This document shows positions 33,896-51,378 of a stretch of DNA of 64,000 bases, one piece after another; the stretch's first letter is position 1; the number at the start of each line of letters is the position of its first letter. This DNA is from an uncultured Gammaproteobacteria bacterium (lineage in GTDB: Bacteria; Patescibacteriota; Patescibacteriia; SG8-24; DYFX01): positions 1,525 through 65,524 of the forward strand of contig CAYOJH010000006.1 in assembly GCA_964404275.1 (NCBI GenBank). Reading direction: 5' to 3'. Below the pieces are notes generated by a model, which saw nothing but the letters and a program-made list of their open reading frames with translations, searched no databases and was not told the origin of the DNA. Both the position numbers and the translations under genes were made by a program.

Positions 33896-36697
33896 CTATT
33901 TCGCCAAATACTGATTCAGCGCTTCGATTGTTGATGCGCTCATGGCGCCGACGGGAGCGAGGCCTTGTTTCAGTTCGAAGGCTTTGAGGGCGCTTTGCGT
34001 GATCGGGCCGAAGAAGCCGGTCGGAGCAATGGTTTTCGGAAAGTCGCCGAGGCATTGCAGGAGCTTTTGGATCGCCGTGATTTGCGCGACGACCTTTCCC
34101 GAAGCGGGAGAGCTGATGAACGTGGCGTCGGTCGTGCAGGCCAGGCCGGACGGCGCGAGGACCGAAACGTCTTCCGCGGCGGTGATCGGTTCGCCGATCA
34201 CGTAGCCGTTTTTCAAGAGCGTGTCCGAGACATCGGAGATCATGCGCGTCCAGTTGCTGCCGTAAAGCGCGCGAGCGACCGTTTCGTCGGCGATCCAGCG
34301 CAGCACGCCGCCTTTGGCGACGGCATAGACTTTCGGATCCGATTGAATCTTCAGCAAGCGGCTACCCGGCCGGTAGGTGACGTTGCTGCCGAGGGGAATG
34401 GCGGCGATCGCGCTGGCGCTCACGATCTGCACGCCGGAAAAATCTTTATACCAGCTGGCGTAGGTTCCGGCATTCGGGAACGGATACCGGCGTCCGTCCG
34501 CGCCGCAGAAGAAGATGACGGAATCCGATTGCGTAGACGGGTCACCGTCATCCGCCAGCTTCATACGCGCGTCGGCAGCGCACATGATCGGCACGCTGGA
34601 GGACGGCGCTTCCAAATTCTTGTCGGCGTTGATCGTGGACGCGGAAGCGAGCGCATCGGCGGCGCGATAAGGAACGAACCCCGTATCAGGCAAGCGCGGG
34701 ACGACGTCGGCCACGACCACGATGGCGATCGCGTAGTCTTTGACGGCCAGTCCGTTGGCTTCTCCGCTGGCCACGGCCGTATTCGCCGTGGTTTTGATGA
34801 TGTTCGTGCGGCAGGTGTGCGTCCACGTTTCGTTCGTATCAAGCCGACCGTCGCCATTCGTGTCGCCCGAGACGTACTGCATCGGACTGCAGGTATCGTC
34901 TGTTAGATGGATGTTGCTGAGCGGCACCGCGCCCGGGTTGGTGATTTTTTCCGTGTACGTGACCGCGCCCCCTCCGGAGGTCAGCGTCAACGGACTCGGA
35001 ATTTTGGTCACGTGGATCAGAGGCGGCACGACAACGCCCGTATTCGGCAAGCCCGGCGCGCCGACCACGACGGTTGCCGTCGCGATGTCCGAAGCGATCA
35101 GACCGTTGGCCCAACCGGTCGCGACAACCGTGTTGGTGTGGGTTTGCGAAAGCGTGGTCGCGCAGCGATAGACCCATGTTTCGTCCACGTCGAGCTTGGC
35201 GTCGGCATTGGTGTCGCCGGAGAGCAGCGTGATGGGGCTGCACGAGTCGCCGACCATCGCGATGTTCGTCACCGGTACCGTGCCGATGTTGCGCAGCGTG
35301 TAGGTATAGCTGACCGGACCTGGGCCGCCCGGCAGCGCCAGGGGACTCGGCACTTTCACGACATCGATCAGCGGCGGCACGGGCGGGACGAGAATCGGCG
35401 CGCCGATGTCGTCATTGATGAGAATGCAGAACTTCACGTCGCCGGGATTGAGATTCAGTCGGCCGGTGGCGTCGCAATCGCCGGAGAACGTATGCTTGTA
35501 GTTTGCGGCATTGGTTTCCGTTACCGCGTAGACGCCGGCCGGCGCGGGGAAATCATTGCTGATCCCGGAGGCGACCGGAATGCCGTTCACGAAGAGGGGA
35601 AAATCGCTGTATGCCTTGTTGTCGCCGTTATCGTTGATGACGGTTTTTACGACCGTGATCGTGCCCGTGTGCACGCCTCCGCCTGTTGGCGCGGGACCGA
35701 CGGGCGGCGTCAGGCCCTGCACGGTGAAGGCCATCGCGTTGGACGCGCCGCCGCCCGGAGCCGGAGTCACGACGGTCACGGGCAGCGTCGCGGCGGTCGC
35801 GAGATCCGAAGAGGGGATCAAAGCGGTCAATTGCGTCGAGGATGCGTACGTCGTGACGCGATTCGAACCGTTCCATTGCACGACCGAAGCCGGAAAGAAG
35901 TTCGCGCCGTTCACGGTGATCGTGAAACCGGCATCCGTCGTGAGTTTTGTCGCGGGACTGATCGTCGTGACCGTCGGGACGGTATACGGTAATTCAAAGT
36001 CGTACGTCGTCACGGCATTGCTTACGCCGATGCTGAAAGCGTCGACGCTTCCCACGAAGCCGCTCGTCCAGCCGCCGCCGGCTTTGAATTGGACCGTGCC
36101 CGTGTTCGCCCCGGCGGAACGGACGCCGGCGTTCGGAAAATCAGCCAGCACTTCCGACCAGGTGCACGGATTGCCGATCGTGCATTTCGCGTTTCCCGGC
36201 GCGCCGGTGAACCACCAGTTGCCCGTGCCGGCGTTGTCGAGGGGATCCCAGGTCTGCCATGTTCCGGTCGAAACGGCGTGCGTATAGTACGGTTCGTAGA
36301 CGAGCCGCCCCTGCCAGGCGGTGTTGGTGTCGGTGACATTGGTGTCGATGTCGAATTGGAGCGAAGGCGCGAGCGCGCCGCTGCCGGACGTCCGATATGT
36401 GCCGTAGGCGAGAGAGGTGATGGCATCAAGCCGCGTGCCGACGTACGCGAACGTCCCGAAGATTTCTCCGCCGGTGCTGTTGACCGTGAGTTGCGCGCTG
36501 CCGCCGCCGAGCGGAGGCGCGGACGGACCGTACGTGAAGGTGCCGGAACCCGTCGGCGTTTCTTGGAAAAAAAACCAGCCGTTCATATCGGCCGGAGTGA
36601 CGACCACCGGAGACGCCGCTTTCGCGGGTCGCGCGGCACCCGCCAAGGCCAAAGCGATTCCGATCAGGCCCAGAAAAAGATTGAAATTTTTCTTCAC
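33896..36697 (-). CDS. large secreted surface protein with Cna-B-like and DUF11-like repeat domains and C-terminal peptidoglycan-binding (PG_binding_1-like) domain
   Basis: GTG start overlapping sortase stop (GTGA); signal peptide; TITVVKTVINDNGDNK...GVYAVTETNAANY (Cna-B type); two ~110-aa Cys-containing repeats; C-terminal GFFGPITQSALKAFELKQGLAPVGAMSASTIEAL resembles PG_binding_1; no C-terminal sorting signal. Confidence 0.7.
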   Translation of the reverse strand: MKKNFNLFLGLIGIALALAGAARPAKAASPVVVTPADMNGWFFFQETPTGSGTFTYGPSAPPLGGGSAQLTVNSTGGEIFGTFAYVGTRLDAITSLAYGTYRTSGSGALAPSLQFDIDTNVTDTNTAWQGRLVYEPYYTHAVSTGTWQTWDPLDNAGTGNWWFTGAPGNAKCTIGNPCTWSEVLADFPNAGVRSAGANTGTVQFKAGGGWTSGFVGSVDAFSIGVSNAVTTYDFELPYTVPTVTTISPATKLTTDAGFTITVNGANFFPASVVQWNGSNRVTTYASSTQLTALIPSSDLATAATLPVTVVTPAPGGGASNAMAFTVQGLTPPVGPAPTGGGVHTGTITVVKTVINDNGDNKAYSDFPLFVNGIPVASGISNDFPAPAGVYAVTETNAANYKHTFSGDCDATGRLNLNPGDVKFCILINDDIGAPILVPPVPPLIDVVKVPSPLALPGGPGPVSYTYTLRNIGTVPVTNIAMVGDSCSPITLLSGDTNADAKLDVDETWVYRCATTLSQTHTNTVVATGWANGLIASDIATATVVVGAPGLPNTGVVVPPLIHVTKIPSPLTLTSGGGAVTYTEKITNPGAVPLSNIHLTDDTCSPMQYVSGDTNGDGRLDTNETWTHTCRTNIIKTTANTAVASGEANGLAVKDYAIAIVVVADVVPRLPDTGFVPYRAADALASASTINADKNLEAPSSSVPIMCAADARMKLADDGDPSTQSDSVIFFCGADGRRYPFPNAGTYASWYKDFSGVQIVSASAIAAIPLGSNVTYRPGSRLLKIQSDPKVYAVAKGGVLRWIADETVARALYGSNWTRMISDVSDTLLKNGYVIGEPITAAEDVSVLAPSGLACTTDATFISSPASGKVVAQITAIQKLLQCLGDFPKTIAPTGFFGPITQSALKAFELKQGLAPVGAMSASTIEALNQYLAK

Positions 36698-37356
36698 AAG
36701 TTTGAATAGTATTCGTCTTTTCGATCGGCAAAAACCACGAGCCGTTTGTTGTACTGTTTAGCGCGTTTGTCCCATACGCCGACGACGCAGGTCACGAGAT
36801 TGAGATGCGATCCTCCATCGCTGGAACCGAAGACGTCGGTCGTATCCGCGCCCGCGTCGTATTGCCGGATATCGCGCACCACGAAGGTCGTGACGACACC
36901 CTTGTCGTCCTGGACCAGGATCGTATCGCCGGGTTTCGTTTTTTTCAGATTCGCGAAGGCCGCGGTCGCTCCGTAGAGCCAATTCACGTGTCCGGCGATG
37001 ACCGCGCTGCCCGTCTCTCCCGGACGAGGTCCTAACGCGTACCAAGCGGCATCTTTGGGACGCCGAGGCACGTTCATGGAACCGTCTGCCGCCAACGCGA
37101 CCTGCTCGACAGCCGCGTTCAAGGAGACGCGCGGGATTTTGATTCGTACGGGAATGCCGAAGCTCTTCTTGACCGAGACGGCTTTCGGGACCTGAACCAC
37201 AGCGAGCATGGTCGATCCGTCGCTGGCCTCAACGGCATTCACCAACGCGTCGCGCATGAGGACGCTTTGCCAGAAAAACGCGGCGATGCCGACCGCCAAG
37301 GCCAAGAATGCGCCCAGCACGCCCTTGTGTATGTGCCCCCTGTTCTTTTTATGCAT
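36694..37356 (-). CDS. sortase (class E/F-like transpeptidase)
   Basis: N-terminal TM anchor; catalytic His (AVIAGHVNW), TLxTC Cys (LNLVTCVVG) and Arg (RLVVFADR). Confidence 0.8.
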   Translation of the reverse strand: MHKKNRGHIHKGVLGAFLALAVGIAAFFWQSVLMRDALVNAVEASDGSTMLAVVQVPKAVSVKKSFGIPVRIKIPRVSLNAAVEQVALAADGSMNVPRRPKDAAWYALGPRPGETGSAVIAGHVNWLYGATAAFANLKKTKPGDTILVQDDKGVVTTFVVRDIRQYDAGADTTDVFGSSDGGSHLNLVTCVVGVWDKRAKQYNKRLVVFADRKDEYYSNL

Positions 37357-37412: not shown

Positions 37413-39074
37413 TTAACGGCCGCGCGAAGCGATCCTTTTTTTCTTCCGGCGAGGCGCAATCAGGTGCATGGCGTAGAGGAGCACGGCGACGAAGGCGCCG
37501 GCCGCGACAAGACTCCAGGTCAGGATGCGGCTCGCAAGGGCGACCGTCGATGTCGCCGAAGCCGTGACGACAGGCAGCGTCCGCGCAGCCGCGATCGGCA
37601 AGGCGGGAACCGGCGTGGCTACCACGACGGTTGCGACGGCGAAGTCTCGTACGGTGAAACCGTTGGCGCTGCCGATGACGACGGCCGTATTCGTCGTGGT
37701 CTTGGAGAGTTTTGCCTTGCAGGTATAGATCCAGGCTTCGGACGGATCAAGTTCTCCGTCCCCGTTCTTGTCGCCGGAGATGCGCTTTAAAGGAGCGCAC
37801 TTGTCGTCCGTAATGCGGACATGGCTGAGCGCAACCTTTCCCGGGTTCGTGATTCTTTCCGTGTACGTGACGTCGCCTCCTCCGGCGGGCAAGGTCAGCG
37901 GGCTCGGAATTTTCGTGACATGGATCAAGGGGGGCGCCGCGATGCCGGCATTCGGCAGCTCCGGAGCGCTGACCACGACCGTCGCGCTTGCGAGGTCGAT
38001 CGCGCTCAGACCGTTGGCCCAACCGGTCGCGACGACCGTGTTGGTGTGGGTTTGCGAGAGCGTGGTCGTGCAGCGATACACCCACGTTTCGTCCACGTCG
38101 AGCTTGGCGTCGGCGTTGGCATCGCCGGAGATGAGCGTGATAGGACTGCAGGAATCGCCGATCATCGTGATATTCGTGACCGGTACCGTGCCGATATTGC
38201 GGAGCGTGTACGTGTACTCGACCGGACCGGGACCGTGCGTTAAGGCCAAGGGATTCGGCACTTTGACGACGTCGATCAAGGGAGGTACCGGAGGAATGAC
38301 GACGGGCGGTGGGGGAGGAGGCTCGGGAGGGATCACGATGGGCGGCGGCGCGGGCACGAAGATATCGTCATTCGTGACGATGCAGACGCGGTTGTCGCCG
38401 GGGTTCAGGTTCAGCTGGCCATTGATATCGCAGTCGCCAGAGAATGTCCGGATATACCCCGCATCGCCGGCTTCCGTTACGGTGAAGACATCGCCCGTGG
38501 CAAGGTAATCGTTCGTCACTCCAGATGCGACTCGGTTTCCGTTCACATAGAGCGGAAAGTCGGAGATGGTTCTGGCGCCGCCGTTGTCGTTGACGACGAT
38601 TTTAACGACGTTGATCGTCCCCATGCGCGACGTCCCTCCTCCGGATGAAGAGGGGCTTGCGGGAGTCGGAGCGGGCGGGACGGCGTTGACGCAGGGTCCG
38701 AAAGAGGTCCAGGTATCCGTCGCGCAAGAGTAACGCGTGCCGCAGAGCAGGATCGTGCCGGCCGTGTCGGCGTACAGCGAGATGTCATGTCCGGTCGTCG
38801 GTGCCCCGCAGTTGTCATTCCCGTTCGGGATGTTCGTTTGCGTGCCGTTCGGCTCCGCGCTCGCGATGAGTCCGGAATAGGTTGGCGCGTTACCGATGAG
38901 GTTATAAAACCAATAGGCATCCGCGCCCGTGTTCTTTCCGGTATACGAACACGTGTCAATGTATTGAACGTGGGTGGTGCAGGTGATTGAGGCGACGTCC
39001 GATGCCAGCGAGGGCGTCGCGCTCAAGAGCATGAGCGCGACGATCGAAATCCCCAGCCCTTTGGGGTAGTTCAT
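37413..39074 (-). CDS. cell-surface repeat protein (Cna-B-like + DUF11-like repeats) with non-canonical C-terminal sorting-signal-like tail
   Basis: Signal peptide MNYPKGLGISIVALMLLSA (ATG at 39074); Cys-rich N-domain, GTINVVKIVVNDNGGARTISDFPLYVNG Cna-B module, two DUF11-like repeats; C-terminus LPVVTAS...hydrophobic...PRRKKKRIASRGR. Confidence 0.65.
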   Translation of the reverse strand: MNYPKGLGISIVALMLLSATPSLASDVASITCTTHVQYIDTCSYTGKNTGADAYWFYNLIGNAPTYSGLIASAEPNGTQTNIPNGNDNCGAPTTGHDISLYADTAGTILLCGTRYSCATDTWTSFGPCVNAVPPAPTPASPSSSGGGTSRMGTINVVKIVVNDNGGARTISDFPLYVNGNRVASGVTNDYLATGDVFTVTEAGDAGYIRTFSGDCDINGQLNLNPGDNRVCIVTNDDIFVPAPPPIVIPPEPPPPPPVVIPPVPPLIDVVKVPNPLALTHGPGPVEYTYTLRNIGTVPVTNITMIGDSCSPITLISGDANADAKLDVDETWVYRCTTTLSQTHTNTVVATGWANGLSAIDLASATVVVSAPELPNAGIAAPPLIHVTKIPSPLTLPAGGGDVTYTERITNPGKVALSHVRITDDKCAPLKRISGDKNGDGELDPSEAWIYTCKAKLSKTTTNTAVVIGSANGFTVRDFAVATVVVATPVPALPIAAARTLPVVTASATSTVALASRILTWSLVAAGAFVAVLLYAMHLIAPRRKKKRIASRGR

Positions 39075-39076
39075 AG

Positions 39077-40891
39077 TCAGGAGGTTTTGCGTCCTGACTT
39101 TTTCCGAAGGCTGTGGAGGAGGAGCGTGGCGGCAAGCAAGCCGGCCGCGACGATGCTCCACGCGGGAACGCCTTCAGCGGGTCCTGCGCCCGTGTTCGGC
39201 AATTTCGGAGCGGCGGCGGCCACGACAACCGTGGCAATCGCGAAGTCGCGCACGGTCATGCCGTTCGCTTCGCCGGTGGCGATGGCGGTATTGGTCGTGG
39301 TCTTCGCCAGCATCGCTTGGCAGGTATAGGTCCACGTTTCGGAAGGATCAAGCTTGTTATCTCCGTTGGTATCGCCGGAGATACGCACCATCGGCGCGCA
39401 GGTGTCGTCGTTGAGCTGGACATTGCTAAGCGCGATCGTGCCGGGGTTGCTGACTTTTTCCGTGTAGGTGATCAGGCCGCCTTTCGCGCCCAAGGCCAGC
39501 GGGCTCGGAAGTTTCGTGACATGGATCAGCGGCGGCACGACAGGCGCGCCGACGACGACCGTTGCGCTGGCAAGATCGGTCGCGCTGATGCCGTTGGCCC
39601 AACCGGTCGCGACGACCGTGTTCGTATGGGTTTGCGTCAAGGTGGTCGTGCAGCTGTAGATCCACGTTTCGTTCACGTCAAGCTTCGCATCATGGTTGAG
39701 ATCGCCGGAGTTCAAGACAATGGGAATGCAGCTGTCGCCGACCATCGTGACGTCCGTGACGGGAACCGTGCCGACGTTACGAAGCGTGTAGGTGTACGTC
39801 ACCGATCCGGGACCGTTCGGCAGGGCCAGCGGACTCGGGACCTTGACGACGTCGATCAGCGGCGGCACGGGCGGAGTGACGACGGGTGCGCCGATGTCGT
39901 TATTCGTGATGATGCAGAAGCGGATATCGCCCGGATTGAGGTTCAAGCGGCCGTCGGCGTCGCAATCGCCAGAAAAAGATTGCGTGTAGCGCGGATCGCT
40001 CGTTTCCGTCACGGCATAGACGCCGGCCGGGGCGGGGAAGTCATACGTGGCGCCGGAAGAGACGGAGATCCCGTTCACGAACAACGGGAAGTCCGCGATG
40101 GTCTTAGTGCCGCCGTTATCATTGATAACTTTTTTGATGACGCCGATCGTACCCGAGTGGCTGCCGCCGGTTGAAACGGGCGTCACGGGAGCTGCGCAGG
40201 TCGGAACCGTGACGGTGTCGGTATTCGTCGTGACCGTGCCGCCAAAAGCCAAGGCTCGCCCTGTCCAGTTGGTGTTGGCGCCCACGGTGATGCCCGAGGC
40301 GTCGATGTCCGTACCGAAGAAGGTCGTATTGGCCGCGAGCGTCGTGGCCTGGGTCGGCGTCCAGAAGACGTCACACGCCGAAGCGCCGCTCAGCGTGACG
40401 ACGGCGCCGGCCGTCGATGTCAGTGCGCCCACGGGCCTGAAAATATAGGTTCCCGTGCCATTCAGCGTCAAAGGACCACCGACATCCATTGCTCCGTTGC
40501 TGCAATAGACGCCAGGCGCATAGACGCCGATCGGACCATGGGTCGTATCCGTGGAAAGATCGATCGCGCCGGCCGCGAACGTGAAGGTGCAGGGCTGGGA
40601 AGCCAACGCCGTGGAGGCATTACCTTGATCGGTACCTGCCGTCGAGTACGGAGCGCCGGACCCATAATTCGCATGCGTGCCCAGGGGGGCAACGGCCGGA
40701 GGCGTTGTGAACCCGACGTCGCCATTGATCGTGGTCGTCGTCGTGTTCGTGTAGGTGCTCGCCAGAACACCGTAGCTTGCCGCCGCTCCCAGCGAAGGCG
40801 ACGTGGCCGCAAGCGCGGCGACGGGACCGAATAGGCTGAATAGTAAAGCCAGAGCTGCTACGCCGCTCCCAACCCTTCGAAAAGTTTTCAT
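39077..40891 (-). CDS. LPXTG-anchored cell-surface repeat protein (Cna-B-like + DUF11-like repeats)
   Basis: Signal peptide; repeat modules as above; C-terminal LPNTG + hydrophobic segment + RKKSGRKTS = canonical sortase sorting signal. Confidence 0.75.
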   Translation of the reverse strand: MKTFRRVGSGVAALALLFSLFGPVAALAATSPSLGAAASYGVLASTYTNTTTTTINGDVGFTTPPAVAPLGTHANYGSGAPYSTAGTDQGNASTALASQPCTFTFAAGAIDLSTDTTHGPIGVYAPGVYCSNGAMDVGGPLTLNGTGTYIFRPVGALTSTAGAVVTLSGASACDVFWTPTQATTLAANTTFFGTDIDASGITVGANTNWTGRALAFGGTVTTNTDTVTVPTCAAPVTPVSTGGSHSGTIGVIKKVINDNGGTKTIADFPLFVNGISVSSGATYDFPAPAGVYAVTETSDPRYTQSFSGDCDADGRLNLNPGDIRFCIITNNDIGAPVVTPPVPPLIDVVKVPSPLALPNGPGSVTYTYTLRNVGTVPVTDVTMVGDSCIPIVLNSGDLNHDAKLDVNETWIYSCTTTLTQTHTNTVVATGWANGISATDLASATVVVGAPVVPPLIHVTKLPSPLALGAKGGLITYTEKVSNPGTIALSNVQLNDDTCAPMVRISGDTNGDNKLDPSETWTYTCQAMLAKTTTNTAIATGEANGMTVRDFAIATVVVAAAAPKLPNTGAGPAEGVPAWSIVAAGLLAATLLLHSLRKKSGRKTS

Positions 40892-41040: not shown

Positions 41041-41520
41041 CTATTTTAGAGGCTTTGTCTCGCCGATTGCCTCATCGGCCGTATCCGCGTCAGCTTCCGC
41101 CTTCGTGCGATGGATGCGGCCGTCGATATGATTCGGCGGCGCGTAGACCGTATAGAGCTTGAGCGCTTCGGCGCCGGTGTTTTTGAAATTATGTTTCGTG
41201 CCCGCGGTCACGACGACGACATCGCCGGGGCCGATCGGGAACGGCTTGTCATTGAGGTATCCCGTGCCCGTTCCCGAAATGAAGAAGAGCGTCTGTTCAG
41301 TATACGTGTGCGTTTCTTCGCCGACCTCGCCGCCGGGCGGAATGCTCATGACCACCAACTGGCTATTCGGACCGGTGAAGACGACGCGGCGGAAATAGTC
41401 GTTTTCCTGCGCCTGCGCGAGAATGTTGCCGTGATAGCTCATGGGAATGTGGGTGGGAGAGCTCGCGCAGCCCGTGCCGAGAAGCAGGAGGCCGGCGAGA
41501 AGAATAAGAAGGCGTTTCAT
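41041..41520 (-). CDS. cupin domain lipoprotein
   Basis: Lipobox LLGTGCASS; cupin motifs (GEVGEETHTYTEQ...PGDVVVVTAGTKHNFKNTG). Confidence 0.6.
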   Translation of the reverse strand: MKRLLILLAGLLLLGTGCASSPTHIPMSYHGNILAQAQENDYFRRVVFTGPNSQLVVMSIPPGGEVGEETHTYTEQTLFFISGTGTGYLNDKPFPIGPGDVVVVTAGTKHNFKNTGAEALKLYTVYAPPNHIDGRIHRTKAEADADTADEAIGETKPLK

Positions 41521-43598
41521 TGTTTTGCGATCCGCCGGTGAAGAATCAAACCGCTGACAACGATGATGGCGAGGAGCAAAAGGGCCGTGATCAACCCGTC
41601 CAGAGGCGTGGCAAAGAGCTCCAAGATGATCAAGCGGACCTTCTGCGTGAATGGAGTTTTTTTCGAGGCGTCGGCCGAAGTCGTTTCAGACGTTGAGACC
41701 GTTGATGGATGAACGGCATCGGTCCCCGTACTCGGAAGTTTCGATTCCGGCATCAGCTTGGACTTTGTCGCAAGATTGAACACGCCGGTCGCCGGCAAGC
41801 CGACGTCTCTTTGATATCTGATGAGGGCGGCGCGCGTGAGCGTTCCGAAATAGCCTTTCGCGACGCGCAACGGCATGGTCAGGAACCCGTCGCGCTCGAG
41901 CGCGGTCTGGAGCGCCGCGACATCCGCGCCTCGCGCGCCCAGCTTGAGAGACTGATACAGGATCGGGGCAAGGATATCGGCGTTTTCCGGCACGGCGTCG
42001 GTGAAGACCACGCGCCGTTGCGGGTAGGTGCCGTTGACCTGGTTCCAAACCCCTTCGCAGGTAATGAGATTCAGGTGCGCGAGGCCGTCGTTCGACGTAA
42101 AGACGGTCGTGGCATCGGCGTTTCTGTCGAACAGGCTGATGGTTCGAACGACGAAGGCAAGCGTTTCGCCTTTATCGTTGACGACGTAGACGATATCGCC
42201 CGCTTTGAGCTTGTCGAGGTCGTAGAAGACGAACGGCACGCCCTTATTGATGCCGAAGTGTCCGCCGATCACGGCGCTGCCTTCCTGGCCGGGATGCGGG
42301 CCGAGCGCGAACCAGGCGACGTTTTCCGAACCCGCCGGGACGTCCATTCTTCCGTCGGGCGTGATCAGCGCGTCCTCGATCGCGGAATCGACGCCGATCG
42401 TCGGAATCTTGAGGCGGACGGGAAGTCCCTGCGGAATGCCGCCCGGATCGCGGATGCTGGAATAGGCGATTTGATTCGAAAGAGATCCCGTGATCGGAAA
42501 TTTCGCCACGGGAAATTTCCAACCGAAGGCGAGGTCAGATGAAACCTGGGGTTCTGCAATCTGATTGCGTCGGGGCGACAAGAAGAAGTACAATCCGCCG
42601 CCCAAGATGGCGGCGAGCACAATGATAGACAGCACTCTTAAGGAGCGTTTGAAGCTCTTTCGCGCTTTCCCGGTCTTGCGCTTCCGCGTGAGCAGCAACA
42701 GGAGAAGGAGGATCGCCAAGACCAAGGACATGATTCCCCACAGAACGATTTTCGACCCGGCGCCGAGTCCGGTCAGCGGAAATTTCGGGACATCCTGATT
42801 CGAAAAGCCGGGAACGAGGCTCCTGACCATGACGGTCAGAGCGAAGTCGTCCACCGCCCGCAAGCCGTTCGCGAACGCCGTCACGTGCACCGTGTTGGTC
42901 GTCGTCTGCTTCAAGTTCGCCGTGCACGTGTAGATCCAGACCTCGTTCGTGTCCAGGAGGCTGTTGCCGTTCGTGTCTCCTAATTTTCCCGACATCGCGC
43001 TGCACTTGTCATCGACGATGGTGACGTTGCTCAGCGGGACAGCGCCAGGGTTGTTGACTCTGTAGGTGAAGGTGATCGGACCGCCCTCGGCCGGCAGGGA
43101 AAGCGGATAGGCGACTTTGGTGACGTTGATGACGCTGACGAGCGGAGCGGGATTCGCGGAGCCGACGACGACGGTCGTATACGCCTTGTGCGTAGCGGTG
43201 ACGCCGTTGGCGCTGCCGGTGACCGTGGCCGTGCTTTGCGTCGTTGCGGAAAGCGTCGTCGTGCAGGTATAGCGCCAGGTTTCGCCGTACTCGAGTCTGC
43301 CATCCCCGTTATCGTCGCCGTCATGAAAGGCGACGGCGCCACAGGCGTCATCGACGACATGCACGTCCGTCAGCGCGATCTCCTGAAGAAAATTCTTCAC
43401 CGCGTAGTTGTACGTGACCTTGCCGCCCGCTTGAGGCAAGACCAACGGGTCGGGCACCGACGTGATGCCGATCAATGGCACGTATAAGACGCTGCCGCTT
43501 CCTTGCGCGCCGGCCGCAAACGCAGCGATCGGACCGATCAAAAGAGATACGAAAAAAAGAGCCGCAATGGCCCGTGAACCCGTTTTATTTGTATGCAT
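41517..43598 (-). CDS. fusion protein: surface repeat domains + sorting-signal-like TM segment + sortase catalytic domain + C-terminal PG_binding_1 domain
   Basis: ATG at 43598 (MHTNKTG) with signal peptide; two DUF11-like repeats; KFPLTG + hydrophobic + TRKRKTGKARK; second TM; sortase motifs (IGGHFG, LNLITCEG, RRVVFTD); C-terminal LKLGARGADVAALQTALERDGFL...GYFGTLTRAALIRYQRDVGL. Confidence 0.65.
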   Translation of the reverse strand: MHTNKTGSRAIAALFFVSLLIGPIAAFAAGAQGSGSVLYVPLIGITSVPDPLVLPQAGGKVTYNYAVKNFLQEIALTDVHVVDDACGAVAFHDGDDNGDGRLEYGETWRYTCTTTLSATTQSTATVTGSANGVTATHKAYTTVVVGSANPAPLVSVINVTKVAYPLSLPAEGGPITFTYRVNNPGAVPLSNVTIVDDKCSAMSGKLGDTNGNSLLDTNEVWIYTCTANLKQTTTNTVHVTAFANGLRAVDDFALTVMVRSLVPGFSNQDVPKFPLTGLGAGSKIVLWGIMSLVLAILLLLLLLTRKRKTGKARKSFKRSLRVLSIIVLAAILGGGLYFFLSPRRNQIAEPQVSSDLAFGWKFPVAKFPITGSLSNQIAYSSIRDPGGIPQGLPVRLKIPTIGVDSAIEDALITPDGRMDVPAGSENVAWFALGPHPGQEGSAVIGGHFGINKGVPFVFYDLDKLKAGDIVYVVNDKGETLAFVVRTISLFDRNADATTVFTSNDGLAHLNLITCEGVWNQVNGTYPQRRVVFTDAVPENADILAPILYQSLKLGARGADVAALQTALERDGFLTMPLRVAKGYFGTLTRAALIRYQRDVGLPATGVFNLATKSKLMPESKLPSTGTDAVHPSTVSTSETTSADASKKTPFTQKVRLIILELFATPLDGLITALLLLAIIVVSGLILHRRIAKQ

Positions 43599-43725
43599 GC
43601 GCGTCTCATGACGGCCGGCGCGTCGTGCAGAACTTAGACGTTCGGCGGCACGCGGCAGCGAGGCATTACCTTGCTGCCAAGTAATTGACTTAAGATTAGC
43701 ACATTTTATAGGCATCGACAAAAAA
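43599..43725 (-). promoter_or_regulatory. conserved upstream leader/promoter element, copy 2
   Basis: See copy 1; same block order and spacing relative to ATG. Confidence 0.4.
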
Positions 43726-43742
43726 AGACCTTCCATGAAGGA

Positions 43743-43759
43743 AAGTCTCTTTTGGTAGC
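43743..43759. repeat. left direct repeat (att-like) GTCTCTTTTGGTAGCCC
   Basis: Matches 51294..51310 GTCGCTTTTGGTAGCCC (16/17); right copy overlaps tRNA-Glu 3-prime end incl. CCA. Confidence 0.5.
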
Positions 43760-43883
43760 CCGGACCACTGAAATGTGGAACGAAATCATGACGGACCTCA
43801 AGGCGTGGACTGTGTTTGGTAGGGACTTGAGGGCTACTGCCGCAGCAGCTTGATAAGACACTGCCACGGGGGAATGGAAGAGG

Positions 43884-45398
43884 TTACTGCGCCGATGAAA
43901 CAACCTCGTTAAGAACGCGCCAGATTGCGATCATGGCCTCGGTATCTCGACCGCAATACTTTTTAAGGTCGGCAGCGATTTTCGCTTTTACCTCGTCGGT
44001 CTGCCCTTCAAAAATCATCCGGTACCAAGCATCCATTGCCGCGCCACCATCCTGAATTTCCAGCTCTTTGTAAGTTAGCGTGGGTACTAACACGGGTAAT
44101 ACTTTCTTTATCGATGTTCTCCCCCGGAAATCCGGATGTACATGGAACTGCTTCTGAAAAATTTCCATCAAATCATAAATGCGAGCATTGATATCAGACA
44201 AGAATGAATCGTGCTGCGGATTTCTCTCCGCAAGCTGAGAGTTGATCTTCCTTTCAAAGGGCTTATACCACACGATAATGGTACCGCTTTCCCCAATAGT
44301 CCCCTGTAGCTTATCGATGATGGCCTCTGACGGGTCTGTTGCTTCCTCGTGCAAGTACTCGAAATGCTCAAAATCAGCATCCGGGCCACTCAGTCTATCC
44401 AAAGAAAATTGGAATGGTATCTGTTGATATGGCTTATAGCCCTTAAACAGCGGGATCGCTGGCGCGTAACTTTCATAGTCAAGAAAATACAACGGGAAGG
44501 CTAGCGAAGAAAGCTCACGTTCGATGGCATCCTTGTCGATGATTGCCTTTTGAGTCTTGTGGGCAATGGCCTGCATTTTCTGAATATCCGACAAAGAAAA
44601 CTCATCCGGCACATCCTTAATGTCGAAGATTCCGTCTTCAACTAAACTCTCCAACTTTTTCTTACTGATCCTCGATAAGTCATGCACCGAGTATTCAGGT
44701 ACCTGCGGATGGGAGTAGCAAAAAGTTGAGCACTGGGAATTCCTGCCGACATACAGGCATTCACAGGATAGGGCGCTCTCATCAAGTTGGGTCAGCGCCT
44801 CTCTCGCTCGATCCATTCGTGCTTTTACATCCTCCATCCTGTCAGCAACCTTTTCGGTCACATCCTCCATCTCGAAGAGCTCTGAAAGTGAGATTTCGTC
44901 ACCACGAACGTACTCTTTGTTCAGGTGAATGATTTTGATTTGCCCAATTTTTATACCCACTGATTGGAGAATGCGTGCCTGAAAGGATGCGTCATCGATA
45001 TGGTCCCGACCATCCTCCCCTTCGTTCAAAGAATTGGTCCCTTTGACCTCGTATAGATTCCAGCACCCGTGATCCTCATCGAACTCCAAAACGTCGTTAC
45101 GCGCCAAAAAACCGTCGTGAATGAAAGTCGCTTGGAAAAGCGCTTTGGAGCCATGACCCATCAACTCTTCCGTCCTCTTTGCGGCAGCCTCGCCCGACTC
45201 CTCGATTAAAATGCCTTCGGGAAAAAGCTTCCTCGCCCATTGTTCAACAAGGTTTCCTTTTGCCAACAGACCTCGCTCAAATTCTGAGAGGGAGAACATT
45301 GAGCTCAAGTCAGGCTTGTGCACCTTAAGCCACGCGTTCTTTCCGCACGCGCTATATTCGAGAAACAGGGTTTTTGTGAGGTATTTCATTTGATCCAT
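43884..45398 (-). CDS. Cas4/RecB-like PD-(D/E)xK nuclease with Fe-S Cys cluster and C-terminal domain of unknown function (DUF2779-like architecture)
   Basis: Probable start MDQMKYL at 45398; N-terminal Cys (YSACGK), D...EVK nuclease motif (ARNDVLEF...NLYEVKGT), CECLYVGRNSQCSTFC cluster (C-x-C-x9-C-x3-C); ~250-aa C-terminal region unassigned. Confidence 0.65.
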   Translation of the reverse strand: MDQMKYLTKTLFLEYSACGKNAWLKVHKPDLSSMFSLSEFERGLLAKGNLVEQWARKLFPEGILIEESGEAAAKRTEELMGHGSKALFQATFIHDGFLARNDVLEFDEDHGCWNLYEVKGTNSLNEGEDGRDHIDDASFQARILQSVGIKIGQIKIIHLNKEYVRGDEISLSELFEMEDVTEKVADRMEDVKARMDRAREALTQLDESALSCECLYVGRNSQCSTFCYSHPQVPEYSVHDLSRISKKKLESLVEDGIFDIKDVPDEFSLSDIQKMQAIAHKTQKAIIDKDAIERELSSLAFPLYFLDYESYAPAIPLFKGYKPYQQIPFQFSLDRLSGPDADFEHFEYLHEEATDPSEAIIDKLQGTIGESGTIIVWYKPFERKINSQLAERNPQHDSFLSDINARIYDLMEIFQKQFHVHPDFRGRTSIKKVLPVLVPTLTYKELEIQDGGAAMDAWYRMIFEGQTDEVKAKIAADLKKYCGRDTEAMIAIWRVLNEVVSSAQ

Positions 45399-45450
45399 GC
45401 TCGTACGATAGGGTTTTTGTGTATACTTAGTCAAAACACAGGCCCTACCG

Positions 45451-48400
45451 ATGGATAACCCTGCCATTCCGCTAAAAGTGAAACTGCTCTGGAAGGCATC
45501 AAAGCCTGCCGATTTTGATTTGTACAAGGCTGCGCTCGAATGGAGTCTTGTTGATCCGATAATCATTGAAAACCGAGACGACCTTAAGTCCGAGTATCTT
45601 TGGCGCGACAAAATAAAGCCATACCACCATCAAGTCACAAATCTAATCACTTTTTGTCGTCGTCTCCCGGTTACACTTCTCGCAGATGACGTTGGTTTGG
45701 GTAAAACCATCAGCGCTGGCTTGATAGCCAGTGAACTCATGACGCGTGATCGTGTTTCCAAGATTTTGATTGTCTGCCCCAAACTGCTGATGAATCAGTG
45801 GAGCGAGGAATTGGAACAAAAGTTTGGCATTGCGTCGACAACTGCCATTGGTAAGACTCTCATAAAGGCGAAGCCGCCGAAGGATGTCGGGGCGGTAATA
45901 ACAACCTACACATCCGCGAAACTGTATTTAGACGACCTCGAAGACGCGGGTTATCAAATGTTGATTCTTGATGAGGCGCATAAACTTCGCAATCTATACG
46001 GTGTCGATCCGACACCTCAAGTAGCAACTCGTTTTAGAAAAGCTCTGAAGGACAGGCTGTTTAGATACGTCCTGATGCTAACAGCTACGCCAATTCAGAA
46101 TCGCCTTTGGGACTTGTATTCACTTATAGACCTATTGACCGTAGCTCGTGGACACGAGAATCCATTTGGTAGTGAAGGGATTTTTGCGCGTAAGTTTATT
46201 GATGACGATCGAACGCAGGCGCGTCGTCTTAACTTAGGCGCAAAGGATGAATTCCGCTCGATCATTTACCAGTACATGTCGCGTGTTCGGCGCGGTGACG
46301 CGCAGCTATATTTTCCTGAAAGGAAAGTTCTGCTCAAGTCCGTAGCGCCAACCGCAGAGGAAAGCGAGCTGATTGGAATTATTGCGGAACCAATTCAGGA
46401 GTTGAACCGTTTGGGACAAATATCGGTTCTTCAGGCCCTCATCAGCAGCCCTGATGCTTTGGCGGCCCAGCTTAGAACGATGGCACGAAACGAAACCATA
46501 CCAGCGGAGCTTGCGACTCGCGTCCGGGAGGTCGTCAAGAAAATGAAGACGACAGCGAAGATGCAGGGCTTGGGATCATTGGTTGAAAAACTTAGAAAGG
46601 AGCGTCCCGAAGACTGGCGGATGGTAGTCTTCACGACTCGCAGGGAAACCCAAACGACGATTCAGGCCTTCTTGGAAGGGCAGGGCATCGCTTGTGGGGT
46701 TATCAATGGGGATTCCGGGCGACGAAACCAAGAGACGATCAATAATTTTAAATGCTACCCTCCCCAGATTAACGTAATCATTTCTACCGAAGCCGGGTCC
46801 GAGGGCGTTAACTTACAGGCCGCAAACGTCCTTGTTAACTACGATCTTCCGTGGAATCCGATGGTGGTGGAGCAGCGCATTGGCCGTATTCAACGCCTTG
46901 CGTCTGAGCACAAGACCGTCTCCATTTTCAATATCATCCTAAAGGGTACTTTCGAGGAGTATATAGTCGGAAGGTTGATGGAAAAACTTCAGATGGCCTC
47001 CCAAGCCATTGGTGATGTTGAGTCGTTGCTTCAGGCGTCGGGAATGGAAGAGGGGGAGGGAGAAATCACTTCATTTGAGGAGCAAATCCGTCGGCTGGTT
47101 ATCGAGTCATTGGCTGGGAAAGATGTTGAAGAAGCCACCCGGATGGCAGAAAAAAGCATCGAACACGCAGAGGCCGAACTCGATCGCGAGGAGAAAAATA
47201 TTGATTCGATGTTGGGCGGTATGGGTGATGTTGTGGGAGTCGATCCGTATCCTCCGAAATTGACCCCGGTCAATCACTCAATGGGACTTCGTGAGTTCGT
47301 GCTTGGCGCACTAGAAGCTCAGGGCGAAAAAGTAACGGCCCAGCCGAACGGTTTGTACGTCTCAGAATCCCATGGTCAAAAGGAACTGTTTCGTTTTGAT
47401 AATGAAGTTGCTGATCCTGAAACGACCAGTACCTTATATGCCCCCGGAAGTCCGGCATTTGAGCGTCTGGTGAATCGTTGTACCAGCCGCGGTTATCACA
47501 CGGTAAACGATGTCGATATAGAACCGCTAAAAAAGGCGATGGATATCGCGGGCGGTTGGGCTAAAGCATTTGATGGCCGATTTGATTCGGCTGCTCCGTT
47601 GGCGGTGTATAGGAATTTTGAAGGTTCGGCAATCATCAGGGTTCATGCAACGGTGGCTCATGACAGCTATGAGCGTCTCGTGGAGTCTGATTGTGCAATA
47701 AAAATGGATCATGACTTGGGCAAACTCGGTCTAGAGCCTCTCCATGCTTCGATTAGCGACCCGCACAAAGTTGGGTTGGATACGGATTGCCTGATTGATA
47801 AGGCATTCCATGATCCCGACATATCAGAATTTTGCCGTTTCTACGGTGAGCGCTTGGAGCAGGAGCTCAAGGCTGTAGGTGATGATGAGCGCAAAAGAAA
47901 AAAGACCGTCGATGACTTCACTCCCCGCATTGCCGTGGAACTCGTGGGGCTAAATGGCAACATCCATCGCCGAATTAAGTTGAACACCAAATATCGAATT
48001 GATGAGGGGGAGTACGAAAGTTCATTGACTGTCATTCCGAATAGCGAAGAAGTTATTGAGGCACCCGAGATCAAGAAGTGCGAGAAAACTGGGCGGCATG
48101 CCCCAGCCGACTGCTTTGGGATTTGTGAAATTAGCAAATTACAAGTGCTGAGGCACCTATTGGTTGCCTCAGACATTTCAGACAGGCAGGCTCTTCCAGA
48201 GCACGTGATTAAGTGCTCATACTCGGGCAAAAAGGTGCTGATCGATGAGGCAGCAAAATCGGACATCTCTGGACATTTTGTGACTGCATCATTGCTGCTT
48301 ACGTCAGCGATTAGCGGAAAGAAGGGGGAGCCAACATACTTTGGTCAATGTGAGTTCACCTCGGTGACAGCCCTCAAGGACGAGCTTTTAACGAGTGAAG

Positions 48401-49149: not shown

Positions 49150-49195
49150 GTGAACGATCCTTGACGCGGGGTATGTAGGCGATAGGCTGGTCTGC

Positions 49196-49453
49196 ATGAA
49201 CCCCAGAACGTCACCCACTTTTGCGAATGACGGATACCGAAGGATTTTTTGTAATGCCTGCGGTCACTTTATCGGGGAGACTCATCTTGGCGAAAAACGG
49301 GAGAGGCAGCTCCGTTGTAAGTTCTGCGGCACGACCGTCAATTTACGACCGCCCCTGAAAGTGGAGCACGATAGCCAGAGGTACATCGAATTTGGCCCTC
49401 AAGCCGCCTGCTTCACGGCTGATTTGACTGACCCGCCTCGTCAGGGTAATTAG
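49196..49453 (+). CDS. small zinc-ribbon protein
   Basis: CNACGH...CKFCG (CxxC-x20-CxxC) in 85-aa ORF directly downstream of helicase. Confidence 0.45.
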   Translation: MNPRTSPTFANDGYRRIFCNACGHFIGETHLGEKRERQLRCKFCGTTVNLRPPLKVEHDSQRYIEFGPQAACFTADLTDPPRQGN

Positions 49454-49521
49454 TATCAATCGACCCGTAACAACCGATTTCGGGCTATAAAGGCACCCCC
49501 TTCCTAGGCGGGTGTGAAGAG

Positions 49522-49567
49522 AGCCCGGCAGAAGCCTGTTTTTTGGCTTCTAGCCGGGCTTTTTTTA
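49522..49567. terminator. strong rho-independent terminator
   Basis: agcccggcagaagcc-tgtttttt-ggcttctagccgggct followed by ttttttt. Confidence 0.55.
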
Positions 49568-49613
49568 TTGGTCACCCCTTGGGGCAGACACCACAAAATA
49601 CCCGCTTTCTGCC

Positions 49614-49814
49614 ATGCTTTCCCTAGCACAAGCAAGGAAAATCGATCCTAGTTTGGAGGATGTGTCCGACGAAGAATTGTTGGGCATTCTTGAGGCGTTG
49701 TATGCATTTGGTCGGGTGGCACTAGATACTTGGTCCACTAAGCAGCATGTTTCCAATAATCCCCTTGGGGTCCAGACTGAAGCAGTAGCACCCGGTATGC
49801 TGCATAGAACATGA
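49614..49814 (+). CDS. small ORF translationally coupled to recombinase (possible accessory/directionality factor)
   Basis: 66-aa ORF whose stop overlaps recombinase ATG (ATGA); no motif; may be spurious. Confidence 0.2.
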   Translation: MLSLAQARKIDPSLEDVSDEELLGILEALYAFGRVALDTWSTKQHVSNNPLGVQTEAVAPGMLHRT

Positions 49815-51343: not shown

Positions 51344-51378
51344 AAGGGAGTTGTCCTAGCCATTAGACGATGAGGCCG
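51303..51378 (-). tRNA. tRNA-Glu (anticodon UUC)
   Basis: Manual fold of minus strand: acceptor GGCCUCA/UGGGGCU (with G1-U72 and U5-G68 wobbles), D-arm GUCU-AAUGGCUA-GGAC, anticodon arm ACUCC-CUUUCAC-GGAGU (UUC), T-arm AGGGG-UUCGACU-CCCCU, discriminator A, encoded CCA. Confidence 0.6.

What the first reader, a model, noticed from the sequence alone, without database searches (positions are those of the whole stretch)
41517..43598. Single ORF fusing a sortase-substrate-like surface protein to a sortase catalytic domain and a PG-binding domain
The N-terminal half has a signal peptide, two DUF11-like repeats and what looks like a complete sorting signal (KFPLTG + hydrophobic segment + TRKRKTGKARK). 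The frame then continues without a stop through a second TM helix into a full sortase domain (His in IGGHFG, LNLITCEG Cys, RRVVFTD Arg) and a C-terminal PG_binding_1-like domain. A substrate-sortase fusion (self-processing or cis-acting anchoring) is unusual; sortases are normally separate from their substrates.
Basis: seen in the sequence. Interest (0 to 1): 0.7.

Follow-up and report, generated by a model that had tools for sequence, protein, structure and literature searches.

The report
Surface protein fused to its sortase
One gene of an ultrasmall (Patescibacteria) bacterium encodes a cell-surface protein, its complete wall-sorting signal and the sortase enzyme expected to cut that signal. 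Relatives usually keep these as two adjacent genes, so the fusion is real, and it pairs the enzyme with its substrate.

Summary
Window 41517-43598 (minus strand) is one uninterrupted 693-aa ORF. Its parts, in order:
- signal peptide
- two CLIPPER_2/DUF7507 domains
- KFPLTG, a hydrophobic helix and a basic stretch, which together form a complete sorting signal
- a second TM helix
- a sortase domain (H447/C514/R528)
- PG_binding_1

One is KFPITG, just before the sortase domain. The other is KLPSTG, about 40 aa before a third, C-terminal TM helix with a basic tail.

The fusion is not an assembly error. About 27 full-length orthologues (51-64% identity, independent metagenomes) have the same architecture.

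It derives from a two-gene operon. In 23 non-redundant related loci (e.g. L004, L006, L007), a ~330-aa CLIPPER_2x2 gene ending in [FL]PxTG-TM-basic tail abuts or overlaps the sortase-PGB gene.

The best reading is that the sortase reaction itself separates the two halves at FPLT|G. This step is inferred, not shown.

A second fusion type, without TM helices, joins LP[NK]TG substrates directly to the small class-F-like sortase in other Patescibacteria.

No description of natural substrate-sortase fusions was found in the searchable literature. This is a new variant of a known kind, of moderate-to-good interest.

The parts
41517..43598 (-). Fused gene, 693 aa plus stop: substrate module, TM hairpin, sortase, PG-binding domain, C-terminal anchor
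   Evidence: ORF list. Identical database protein P0001 and ~27 full-length orthologues.
43515..43598 (-). Signal peptide (residues 1-28: basic n-region, hydrophobic core, AFA|A)
   Evidence: Read from the sequence. Kyte-Doolittle peak at 10-28. AF2 helix 7-25. No signal-peptide predictor was available.
43158..43487 (-). CLIPPER_2 (DUF7507) domain 1, residues ~38-147. Cys pair C86/C112. The isopeptide Lys and Asn positions are Ser and Ser.
   Evidence: Pfam, two stretches. AF2 beta-sandwich 43-145 with pLDDT ~90. Alignment.
42819..43145 (-). CLIPPER_2 (DUF7507) domain 2, residues ~152-260. Invariant K161, D196, C199, C225, N235.
   Evidence: Pfam best stretch. Invariant columns. AF2 strands 158-258. 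Family described in PMC12617251.
42768..42782 (-). Motif 1: FPLTG (residues 273-277, preceded by K272), the pentapeptide of the internal sorting signal
   Evidence: DNA and translation. [FL]PxxG is kept in 21 of 29 fused orthologues and in 21 of 23 separate upstream genes.
42690..42749 (-). TM1 (residues 284-303), the hydrophobic segment of the sorting signal, predicted out-to-in
   Evidence: Kyte-Doolittle 3.04. AF2 helix 280-303.
42636..42689 (-). Basic cytoplasmic loop TRKRKTGKARKSFKRSLR (residues 304-321). This is the fusion junction: the substrate's charged tail joined to the sortase's N-terminus.
   Evidence: Sequence. In L004 the same position reads ...IRKSKPGKTGQKPN*, stop TAG, 15 nt, then MKKNPLK....
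42579..42635 (-). TM2 (residues 322-340), the sortase's own signal-anchor, predicted in-to-out
   Evidence: Kyte-Doolittle 2.46. AF2 helix 313-340. Corresponds to the N-terminal TM of unfused homologues.
42486..42527 (-). Motif 2: the conserved block FGWKFPVAKFPITG (residues 358-371) between TM2 and the sortase barrel
   Evidence: W360, P363, P368 and G371 are invariant. [LFIVM]PxT[GAS] is present here in 64 of 89 family members against 2.9% in shuffles.
41997..42413 (-). Sortase catalytic domain (residues 396-534), with H447 (42258-42260), C514 (42057-42059) and R528 (42015-42017)
   Evidence: Pfam 1.1e-18. NCBIfam class F-like. phmmer hit to 8t28. Foldseek hits to class C sortases at E 4.6e-9.
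41754..41933 (-). PG_binding_1 domain (residues 556-615)
   Evidence: Pfam 2.8e-12. pLDDT >90. phmmer hit to SleB PG-binding domains.
41724..41738 (-). Motif 3: LPSTG (residues 621-625) in a disordered Ser/Thr-rich linker
   Evidence: A motif is present at this place in 68 of 89 family members against 6% in shuffles, a median of 33 aa before the last hydrophobic peak.
41520..41606 (-). TM3 (residues 665-686) plus the basic tail HRRIAKQ
   Evidence: Kyte-Doolittle 2.86. AF2 helix 665-692. Conserved in fused and unfused homologues.
41041..41520 (-). Cupin_2 protein gene. Its ATG overlaps the fused gene's stop codon (ATGA).
   Evidence: A cupin gene also lies near the locus in L003 and L006.
39077..40891 (-). 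Sortase substrate: Ice_binding domain, two CLIPPER_2 domains, KLPNTG, TM, basic tail
37413..39161 (-). Second CLIPPER_2x2 surface protein with a hydrophobic segment and RRKKKR tail. Probable start at MNYPKGLG.
36694..37356 (-). Second, small sortase (220 aa, class F-like, no PG-binding domain, no LPXTG motif)
   Evidence: Pfam 8.6e-22. NCBIfam class_F_sortase 115 bits. Sequence.
33896..36697 (-). 933-aa surface protein: CLIPPER_2 domains, an internal GLPNTG, then RLPDTG followed by ~240 aa that end in PG_binding_1, with no TM

Best explanation
This is a real, conserved gene fusion of a dedicated sortase substrate with its sortase. It arose when the stop codon was lost between two adjacent, translationally coupled genes.

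Predicted membrane topology, by the positive-inside rule (inferred):
- The signal peptide is removed and the two CLIPPER_2 domains lie outside the cell.
- TM1, the hydrophobic part of the sorting signal, runs out-to-in.
- The 18-residue loop, with 10 Lys/Arg, stays in the cytoplasm.
- TM2, the sortase's normal signal-anchor, runs in-to-out.
- The sortase barrel and the PG-binding domain lie outside.
- TM3 and its basic tail re-anchor the C-terminus.

Inferred mechanism: a sortase active site cuts between T276 and G277 of KFPLTG. That site could belong to the same chain, to a neighbouring copy, or to the small sortase of the locus. The CLIPPER_2x2 module is then transferred to a cell-wall precursor, or to a lysine of another surface subunit. 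The enzyme is left behind on a TM1-loop-TM2 hairpin.

Fused and split forms would therefore yield the same mature products. That would explain why both states occur among close relatives. The fusion enforces 1:1 synthesis and co-localisation of substrate and enzyme.

Shown: the architecture, its conservation, the intact triad and the split-gene ancestry. Inferred: the topology, the cleavage and the acceptor.
For: - ORF continuity and domain hits.
- About 27 full-length fused orthologues at 51-64% identity, on independent contigs up to 103 kb, with near-constant junction length.
- Stop-to-stop ORF analysis of 59 loci. It found 7 fused loci: L001, L002, L003, L008, L010 and L013, plus L060, which is the TM-less type. 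L003 and L008 are the same contig. It also found 23 non-redundant loci where the orthologous N-module gene (62-72% identity) ends 0-31 nt before, or overlaps, the sortase-PGB ORF.
- That separate gene ends in a textbook sorting signal, e.g. NFPETG-TM-IRKSKPGKTGQKPN*.
- The motif is kept in 21 of 29 fused proteins, including this one.
- The triad H447/C514/R528 is conserved, and the model has a sortase fold.
- In a neighbour-joining tree the window's protein sits in a mostly fused clade, which suggests the fused state has persisted through long divergence.
- The locus holds further LPXTG substrates and a second sortase.
Against: - There is no experimental or proteomic evidence of cleavage.
- 8 of 29 fused orthologues have lost a recognisable motif 1. 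Fusion without cleavage is therefore viable in some lineages.
- The fused state is the minority: 3 of 52 loci from species-representative genomes.
- AlphaFold gave no confident contact between any of the three motifs and the active site.
- The neighbour-joining tree has no support values, so the number of fusion events is unresolved.
- This sortase's specificity for FPxTG is inferred only from adjacency and fusion.
Confidence: 0.65

Rival explanations
1. The N-terminal module is not released. The fusion makes a sortase with a permanent extracellular CLIPPER_2 stalk, held by the TM hairpin. The stalk could act as a scaffold or spacer that positions the enzyme in the wall. On this reading, motif 1 is an evolutionary leftover.
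For: 8 of 29 fused orthologues lack a recognisable [FL]PxxG at the motif-1 position. P0033 and P0040 keep the signal peptide, motif and TM hairpin but have lost the CLIPPER_2 cargo. This shows the N-terminal extension can persist without a substrate function.
Against: The window's protein has a canonical KFPLTG. 21 of 29 fused proteins keep the motif, close to the 21 of 23 in separate genes. The separate orthologue is an ordinary sorting-signal protein.
Confidence: 0.2
2. The sortase-PGB enzyme is itself a sortase substrate. The conserved FPxTG before the barrel and the LPxT[GA] after the PG-binding domain would be processing sites. Processing would excise the enzyme from its membrane anchors and link it covalently to peptidoglycan, or to other subunits. 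The C-terminal site might be handled by the small sortase, since LPNTG-like motifs match that enzyme's presumed substrates.
For: Motifs 2 and 3 occur in 72% and 76% of 89 fused and unfused family members, against 3% and 6% in shuffles. Motif 3 (LPNTG, LPSTA) resembles the LP[NK]TG of 109 other substrates. Those substrates are the ones fused directly to the small sortase type. Motif 3 is followed by a TM helix and a basic tail.
Against: Motif 3 lies a median of 33 aa from the hydrophobic segment, unlike canonical sorting signals. Motif 2 could instead be a pseudo-substrate or lid. AlphaFold leaves both linkers disordered. There are no biochemical data.
Confidence: 0.25
3. The fusion is an artefact: a frameshift, a missed stop or a chimeric assembly joining two genes.
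For: Most related loci have two genes. One relative, P0070 on a 1.6-kb contig, looks frameshifted inside the sortase part.
Against: The exact 693-aa protein is already in a public record. About 27 fused orthologues come from different assemblers and samples, and their junction lengths are similar. No stop codon is present across the junction.
Confidence: 0.03

Closest known systems
Class F sortases (NCBIfam NF033748; e.g. actinobacterial SrtF)
   Same: Class F is the best-scoring class model for both sortases of the locus (104 and 115 bits). They share a single catalytic barrel, an N-terminal membrane anchor and LPXTG-type motifs.
   Different: Both scores are below the curated cut-off of 166. 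Arg528 is kept, whereas actinobacterial class F enzymes are reported to have Asn at that position (PMC8703055). The window's enzyme also has a PG_binding_1 domain, a C-terminal TM, two flanking LPXTG-like motifs and, here, a fused substrate.
Class C (pilus-assembly) sortases and sortase-dependent pilus gene clusters (SpaA-type)
   Same: These are the closest solved folds (2xwg, 2w1j, 3tbe, 4g1h). Class C enzymes also have an N-terminal anchor plus a C-terminal TM (my knowledge). Both kinds of locus combine two sortases with several LPXTG proteins built from CnaA-like domains that are candidates for intramolecular isopeptide bonds.
   Different: The class C HMM scores only 24 bits against a cut-off of 160. 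No DP[WFY] lid motif was found; the segment reads IRDPGG. No pilin motif has been shown. In class C systems substrate and enzyme are separate genes.
[quoted passage not shown]
   Same: Motif 1 has all three elements with normal spacing. The split orthologues carry it at a true C-terminus.
   Different: Here the signal is internal and is followed by 390 further residues. The first motif residue is often Phe and position 4 is relaxed ([FL]Px[TA]G). There is no Pfam Gram_pos_anchor hit.
Engineered self-cleaving sortase-LPXTG-target fusions used for protein purification and ligation (my knowledge; only engineered fusions turned up)
   Same: Enzyme and recognition motif sit on one chain, so the transpeptidase reaction can separate the two parts.
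   Different: Those are artificial and soluble, with the enzyme N-terminal to the motif. The window's fusion is natural and membrane-threaded, with the substrate N-terminal.
N-terminal appendages and lids that occupy sortase active sites (class C lid; B. anthracis SrtA appendage; my knowledge)
   Same: Motif 2 lies in the same place, the linker just before strand beta1. It looks like a substrate, so it is a candidate pseudo-substrate.
   Different: No structural support was obtained here: pLDDT is below 50 in two models. Known lids are not LPXTG-like.

Membership tests
Sortase (Pfam PF04203, cysteine transpeptidase) | Domain HMM above the gathering score | tested here: met
   67.6 bits against a cut-off of 26.6, E 1.1e-18
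Sortase (Pfam PF04203, cysteine transpeptidase) | His-Cys-Arg catalytic residues in order | tested here: met
   H447 is invariant. C514 and R528 are conserved in at least 90% of 29 orthologues. His and Cys align with those of 8t28.
Sortase (Pfam PF04203, cysteine transpeptidase) | Eight-stranded beta-barrel fold | tested here: met
   AF2 model. Foldseek top 20 are all sortases, E down to 4.6e-9, TM-score on target ~0.6.
Sortase (Pfam PF04203, cysteine transpeptidase) | Transpeptidase activity on an LPXTG-type signal | not testable with these tools
   Needs biochemistry
Class F sortase (NCBIfam NF033748) | Score at or above the curated cut-off (166 bits) | tested here: not met
   104.3 bits. 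It is the best class model but is sub-threshold.
Class C pilus sortase (NCBIfam NF033745) | Class HMM at or above 160 bits, and a DP[WFY] lid | tested here: not met
   24.1 bits. The linker has IRDPGG and no aromatic lid residue. A C-terminal TM is present and the nearest solved folds are class C.
Cell-wall sorting signal (LPXTG / Gram_pos_anchor) | Pentapeptide, then a hydrophobic stretch of ~20 aa, then a positively charged tail | tested here: met
   FPLTG 273-277, hydrophobic 284-303, TRKRKTGKARK
Cell-wall sorting signal (LPXTG / Gram_pos_anchor) | Located at the C-terminus of the precursor | tested here: not met
   Motif 1 is followed by 390 residues. It is C-terminal only in the split orthologues. 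There is no PF00746 hit at E<=0.1.
Cell-wall sorting signal (LPXTG / Gram_pos_anchor), applied to motif 3 of the sortase itself | Pentapeptide immediately followed by the hydrophobic segment | tested here: not met
   LPSTG at 621-625 but TM at 665-686. The family median spacing is 33 aa.
CLIPPER_2 / DUF7507 (isopeptide-bond domain, CnaA-like) | Domain HMM above the gathering score | tested here: met
   42.3 bits against 27, in two stretches. Two beta-sandwiches with pLDDT ~90.
CLIPPER_2 / DUF7507 (isopeptide-bond domain, CnaA-like) | Lys-Asn isopeptide pair with a catalytic acid residue | tested here: inconclusive
   Domain 2 keeps invariant K161, D196 and N235. Domain 1 has Ser at both the Lys and Asn positions. 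The residue assignments rest on my own repeat-to-repeat comparison, and the geometry was not checked.
PG_binding_1 (PF01471) | Domain HMM above the gathering score | tested here: met
   47.1 bits against 23. Matches SleB PG-binding domains in the PDB.

The most novel reading that the evidence does not exclude
In these Patescibacteria the sortase may be a consumable part of the cargo rather than a membrane-fixed housekeeping enzyme.

- LPXTG motifs are followed interchangeably by a TM helix plus tail, by a PG-binding domain, by the small sortase domain itself (TM-less direct fusions), or by a TM hairpin plus the PGB-sortase (this gene).
- The PGB-sortase is flanked by its own FPxTG and LPxTG sites. 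It could therefore be excised from the membrane and ligated covalently into the wall, or into a fibre. The C-terminal site may be handled by the second sortase, which would make a sortase cascade.

This would describe single-use or wall-resident sortases, a mode of surface assembly not known from Gram-positive model organisms.
Probability: 0.22. Interest if true: 0.8.

Novelty: new variant of a known kind. Interest (0 to 1): 0.6.

Why it matters
Sortase-substrate pairing is usually inferred only from gene neighbourhood. A natural fusion, read together with its split orthologues, assigns a specific substrate (a CLIPPER_2x2 protein with [FL]PxTG) to a specific sortase (the PG-binding type). This is in Patescibacteria, a lineage with very few cultivated members, where surface structures are thought to mediate attachment to hosts.

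The direct, TM-less fusions assign LP[NK]TG substrates to the small sortase in the same way. Together these give testable specificity predictions for two uncharacterised class-F-like enzymes.

The enzyme also carries conserved LPXTG-like sites of its own. That raises the possibility that a sortase is processed or anchored by sortase chemistry.

If cleavage in cis is confirmed, the protein would be a natural self-processing transpeptidase cassette, which could also be useful for protein engineering.

Tried and rejected
- **Exact-sequence contig look-up** for the window's protein found nothing, and the cluster look-up gave no names. The organism is therefore inferred only from its homologues, which are Patescibacteria, Paceibacterota and Liptonbacteria MAGs.
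- **AlphaFold models.** Two were run, one full-length and one of residues 345-620, to see whether KFPITG or KFPLTG docks into the active site. Both linkers came out at pLDDT <50 to ~55. The pseudo-substrate idea is neither supported nor excluded.
- **Promoter and terminator scan** around the gene found nothing above shuffle expectation.
- **Relaxed selection on motif 1 in fused forms.** 21 of 29 fused proteins keep the motif against 21 of 23 split genes. This is not a clear difference, so I rejected it as a firm claim.
- **Membership in class C or class F.** I rejected both on HMM cut-offs.
- **Assembly artefact or chance ORF.** I rejected both.
- **Literature.** Searches on natural sortase fusions, CPR sortases and sortase domain architectures found no prior description. 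Only engineered fusions turned up, plus the statement that sortase is common in CPR.
Full report
**1. The observation**

The region holds one minus-strand ORF. As listed it runs 41517-43736 (739 aa from the first ATG). That product is identical to a protein already in the public collection (P0001, 100% identity and coverage, NCBI, 68-kb contig). I read the DNA across the presumed junction and found no stop or frame change.

Domain hits:
- Pfam: Sortase 67.6 bits (cut-off 26.6), PG_binding_1 47.1 bits (cut-off 23), DUF7507 42.3 bits in two stretches (cut-off 27).
- NCBIfam: class_F_sortase is the best class model at 104 bits, below its cut-off of 166.

DUF7507 has been renamed CLIPPER_2. It is a CnaA-like surface domain that often carries an intramolecular isopeptide bond (PMC12617251).

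**2. Anatomy (693-aa numbering)**

| Residues | Feature |
|---|---|
| 1-28 | Signal peptide |
| ~38-147 | CLIPPER_2 domain 1 |
| ~152-260 | CLIPPER_2 domain 2 |
| 272-277 | KFPLTG (motif 1) |
| 284-303 | Hydrophobic helix TM1 |
| 304-321 | Basic stretch TRKRKTGKARKSFKRSLR |
| 322-340 | TM2 |
| 342-390 | Linker containing the conserved block FGWKFPVAKFPITG (358-371, motif 2) |
| 396-534 | Sortase barrel with H447, C514, R528 |
| 556-615 | PG_binding_1 |
| 620-625 | KLPSTG (motif 3), in a disordered Ser/Thr-rich linker |
| 665-686 | TM3 |
| 687-693 | Basic tail HRRIAKQ |

The AlphaFold model (mean pLDDT 75) gives two confident beta-sandwiches, three long helices at the hydrophobic segments, a sortase barrel and a confident PG-binding domain. 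The nearest solved folds are class C pilus sortases, for example 2xwg at E 4.6e-9. His and Cys align with those of the class C sortase 8t28.

**3. Artefact or real?**

The homology search returned about 27 full-length proteins with the same order of parts. They share 51-64% identity and 92-100% coverage. They come from JGI, NCBI, ENA and Logan assemblies on contigs up to 103 kb.

Two fused loci were inspected directly (L001 and L003). In each, the fused gene sits next to Ice_binding/CLIPPER_2 proteins, and in L001 also next to a small sortase. The loop between TM1 and TM2 has nearly constant length in the alignment. An assembly or frameshift artefact is excluded for practical purposes.

**4. 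Origin**

Unfused relatives of 381-420 aa are more numerous. Their layout is TM, FGWKFPxxKFPxTG, sortase, PG_binding_1, LPxT[GA], spacer, TM and basic tail.

In L004 the gene immediately upstream of such a sortase encodes a 334-aa protein: a signal peptide, two CLIPPER_2 domains, then NFPETG, a TM helix and IRKSKPGKTGQKPN*. A TAG stop and 15 nt follow before the sortase ATG. L006 and L007 show the same pair, separated by a few bases or overlapping.

I scanned species-representative genomes (52 loci, almost all Patescibacteria MAGs) and classified stop-to-stop ORFs in all 59 fetched loci:
- **Fused:** 7 loci. These are L001, L002, L003, L008, L010 and L013, plus L060, which is the TM-less type described in section 7. 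L003 and L008 are the same contig.
- **Split pair:** 23 non-redundant loci have the orthologous N-module gene (62-72% identical to the window's N-half) ending 0-31 nt before, or overlapping, the sortase ORF.
- **No N-module upstream:** about 20 loci, for example those from Collierbacteria.

The window's gene is thus the fused version of a tightly coupled substrate-sortase gene pair. The junction joins the substrate's cytoplasmic charged tail to the sortase's cytoplasmic N-terminus. This joint is topologically seamless.

In a neighbour-joining tree of the sortase-PGB part, fused and split forms are interleaved. The window's protein lies in a mostly fused clade. The tree has no support values, so the number of fusion events is open.

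**5. Mechanism**

By the positive-inside rule, the CLIPPER_2 domains, the sortase and the PG-binding domain are all outside the cell. The basic loop and the C-terminal tail are inside (inference).

The simplest reading is that sortase chemistry cuts FPLT|G, releasing and anchoring the CLIPPER_2x2 module. The enzyme is left on a TM hairpin. Fused and split forms would then give the same mature products.

- In support: a recognisable [FL]PxxG is kept in 21 of 29 fused proteins, against 21 of 23 separate genes.
- Against generality: 8 fused orthologues have lost the motif, and P0033 and P0040 keep the signal peptide, motif and hairpin but have lost the cargo domains.
- Still open: whether cleavage is in cis, in trans, or by the small sortase (window 36694-37356) cannot be decided here.

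**6. The sortase's own motifs**

I searched for [LFIVM]PxT[GAS] across 89 fused and unfused family members:
- It occurs in the pre-barrel linker in 64 members, against 2.9% in shuffled linkers. It is mostly FP[SLIT]TG.
- It occurs in the post-PGB linker in 68 members, against 6% in shuffles. It is mostly LPNTG or LPSTA, a median of 33 aa before the last hydrophobic peak.

These motifs are under selection, but their role is unknown. Candidates are a pseudo-substrate or lid (motif 2) and self-anchoring or processing (motifs 2 and 3). Two AlphaFold runs left both linkers at low confidence, so no structural support was obtained.

**7. Wider pattern**

Other substrates of this protein family (n=109) use LP[NK]TG: LPNTG 54 times and LPKTG 17 times. 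The sortase-adjacent module mostly uses [FL]P[ED]TG. This suggests two signal classes for the two sortases.

Several proteins fuse an LP[NK]TG substrate directly to the small class-F-like sortase domain, with no TM segment between them. They are P0103, P0104 (a stand-alone gene in L060), P0121, P0123, P0125, P0126 and P0205.

In the window's 933-aa protein, and in P0111, the LPXTG is followed by a PG-binding domain instead of a TM helix. Substrate-sortase fusion is therefore recurrent in this lineage, and the element after LPXTG is variable.

**8. Comparison with known systems, and novelty**

This is a sortase by every sequence and fold test. It is closest to class F by HMM (sub-threshold) and to class C by fold. 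It is not a member of either class by the curated cut-offs.

Sortases are known to be common in CPR bacteria (PMC6744442). I found no description of natural substrate-sortase fusions, or of sortases carrying their own LPXTG signals. Only engineered fusions appeared.

I rate it a new variant of a known kind, with interest about 0.6. The architecture-level claims are solid. The processing mechanism is inferred and is directly testable with peptides and a C514A mutant.

Noticed in passing
window 43718-51377: A ~7.5-kb low-GC island (GC 0.47-0.50 against 0.61) lies immediately upstream of the fused gene. It carries a DUF2779 protein, a 1232-aa SNF2-family helicase and a large serine recombinase. 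It is bounded by tRNA-Glu(ttc) at 51303-51377 and by an imperfect 44-nt direct repeat (43718-43761 and 51268-51311) that ends in the tRNA 3' end. It looks like an integrative element inserted in tRNA-Glu.
   Followed up: partly
window 33896-36697 (-): This 933-aa surface protein has an LPXTG-like motif (RLPDTG) followed by ~240 residues that end in PG_binding_1, with no TM segment. It also has an internal GLPNTG between its two CLIPPER_2 domains. The 582-aa neighbour has ELPNAG at the same interdomain place. P0111 shows the same arrangement of LPNTG followed by PG_binding_1.
   Followed up: partly
L060 3821-6394 (P0104); also P0103, P0121, P0123, P0125, P0126, P0205: A second kind of substrate-sortase fusion occurs in other Patescibacteria. 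Ice_binding/CLIPPER_2 proteins have their LP[NK]TG followed, after 10-60 residues with no TM helix, by the small class-F-like sortase domain. P0104 is a stand-alone gene on a 78-kb contig.
   Followed up: partly
window 41041-41520 (-); L003 16672-17067; L006 768-1169: A small Cupin_2 protein gene with a signal-peptide-like N-terminus starts at an ATGA overlap with the fused gene's stop codon. A cupin gene recurs near the sortase locus in two other genomes.
   Followed up: no
P0033 (L015 5815-7335), P0040: These are 'cargo-less' fused forms. They keep the signal peptide, about 20 residues, LPGTG, TM, basic loop, TM and sortase-PGB. It looks as if both CLIPPER_2 domains were deleted from a fused gene.
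   Followed up: no
window 43158-43487 versus 42819-43145 (-): Domain 2 of the N-module keeps invariant K161, D196 and N235, which are candidate isopeptide residues. Domain 1 has Ser at both the Lys and Asn positions but carries a nearly invariant Lys in YAVKNF (K68). Both domains keep a Cys pair. K68 could be a pilin-like nucleophile, but that is pure speculation.
   Followed up: no
protein set; window 39077-40891: Two sorting-signal classes coexist. The Ice_binding/CLIPPER_2 substrates mostly use LP[NK]TG (71 of 109 proteins). The sortase-adjacent CLIPPER_2x2 module uses [FL]P[ED]TG, with a relaxed fourth position (TG, AG, VG). This matches the presence of two sortases per locus.
   Followed up: partly
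P0070 (1.6-kb contig): This relative has the fused layout, but the reading frame is lost inside the sortase part. It is a likely sequencing error or pseudogene.
   Followed up: no
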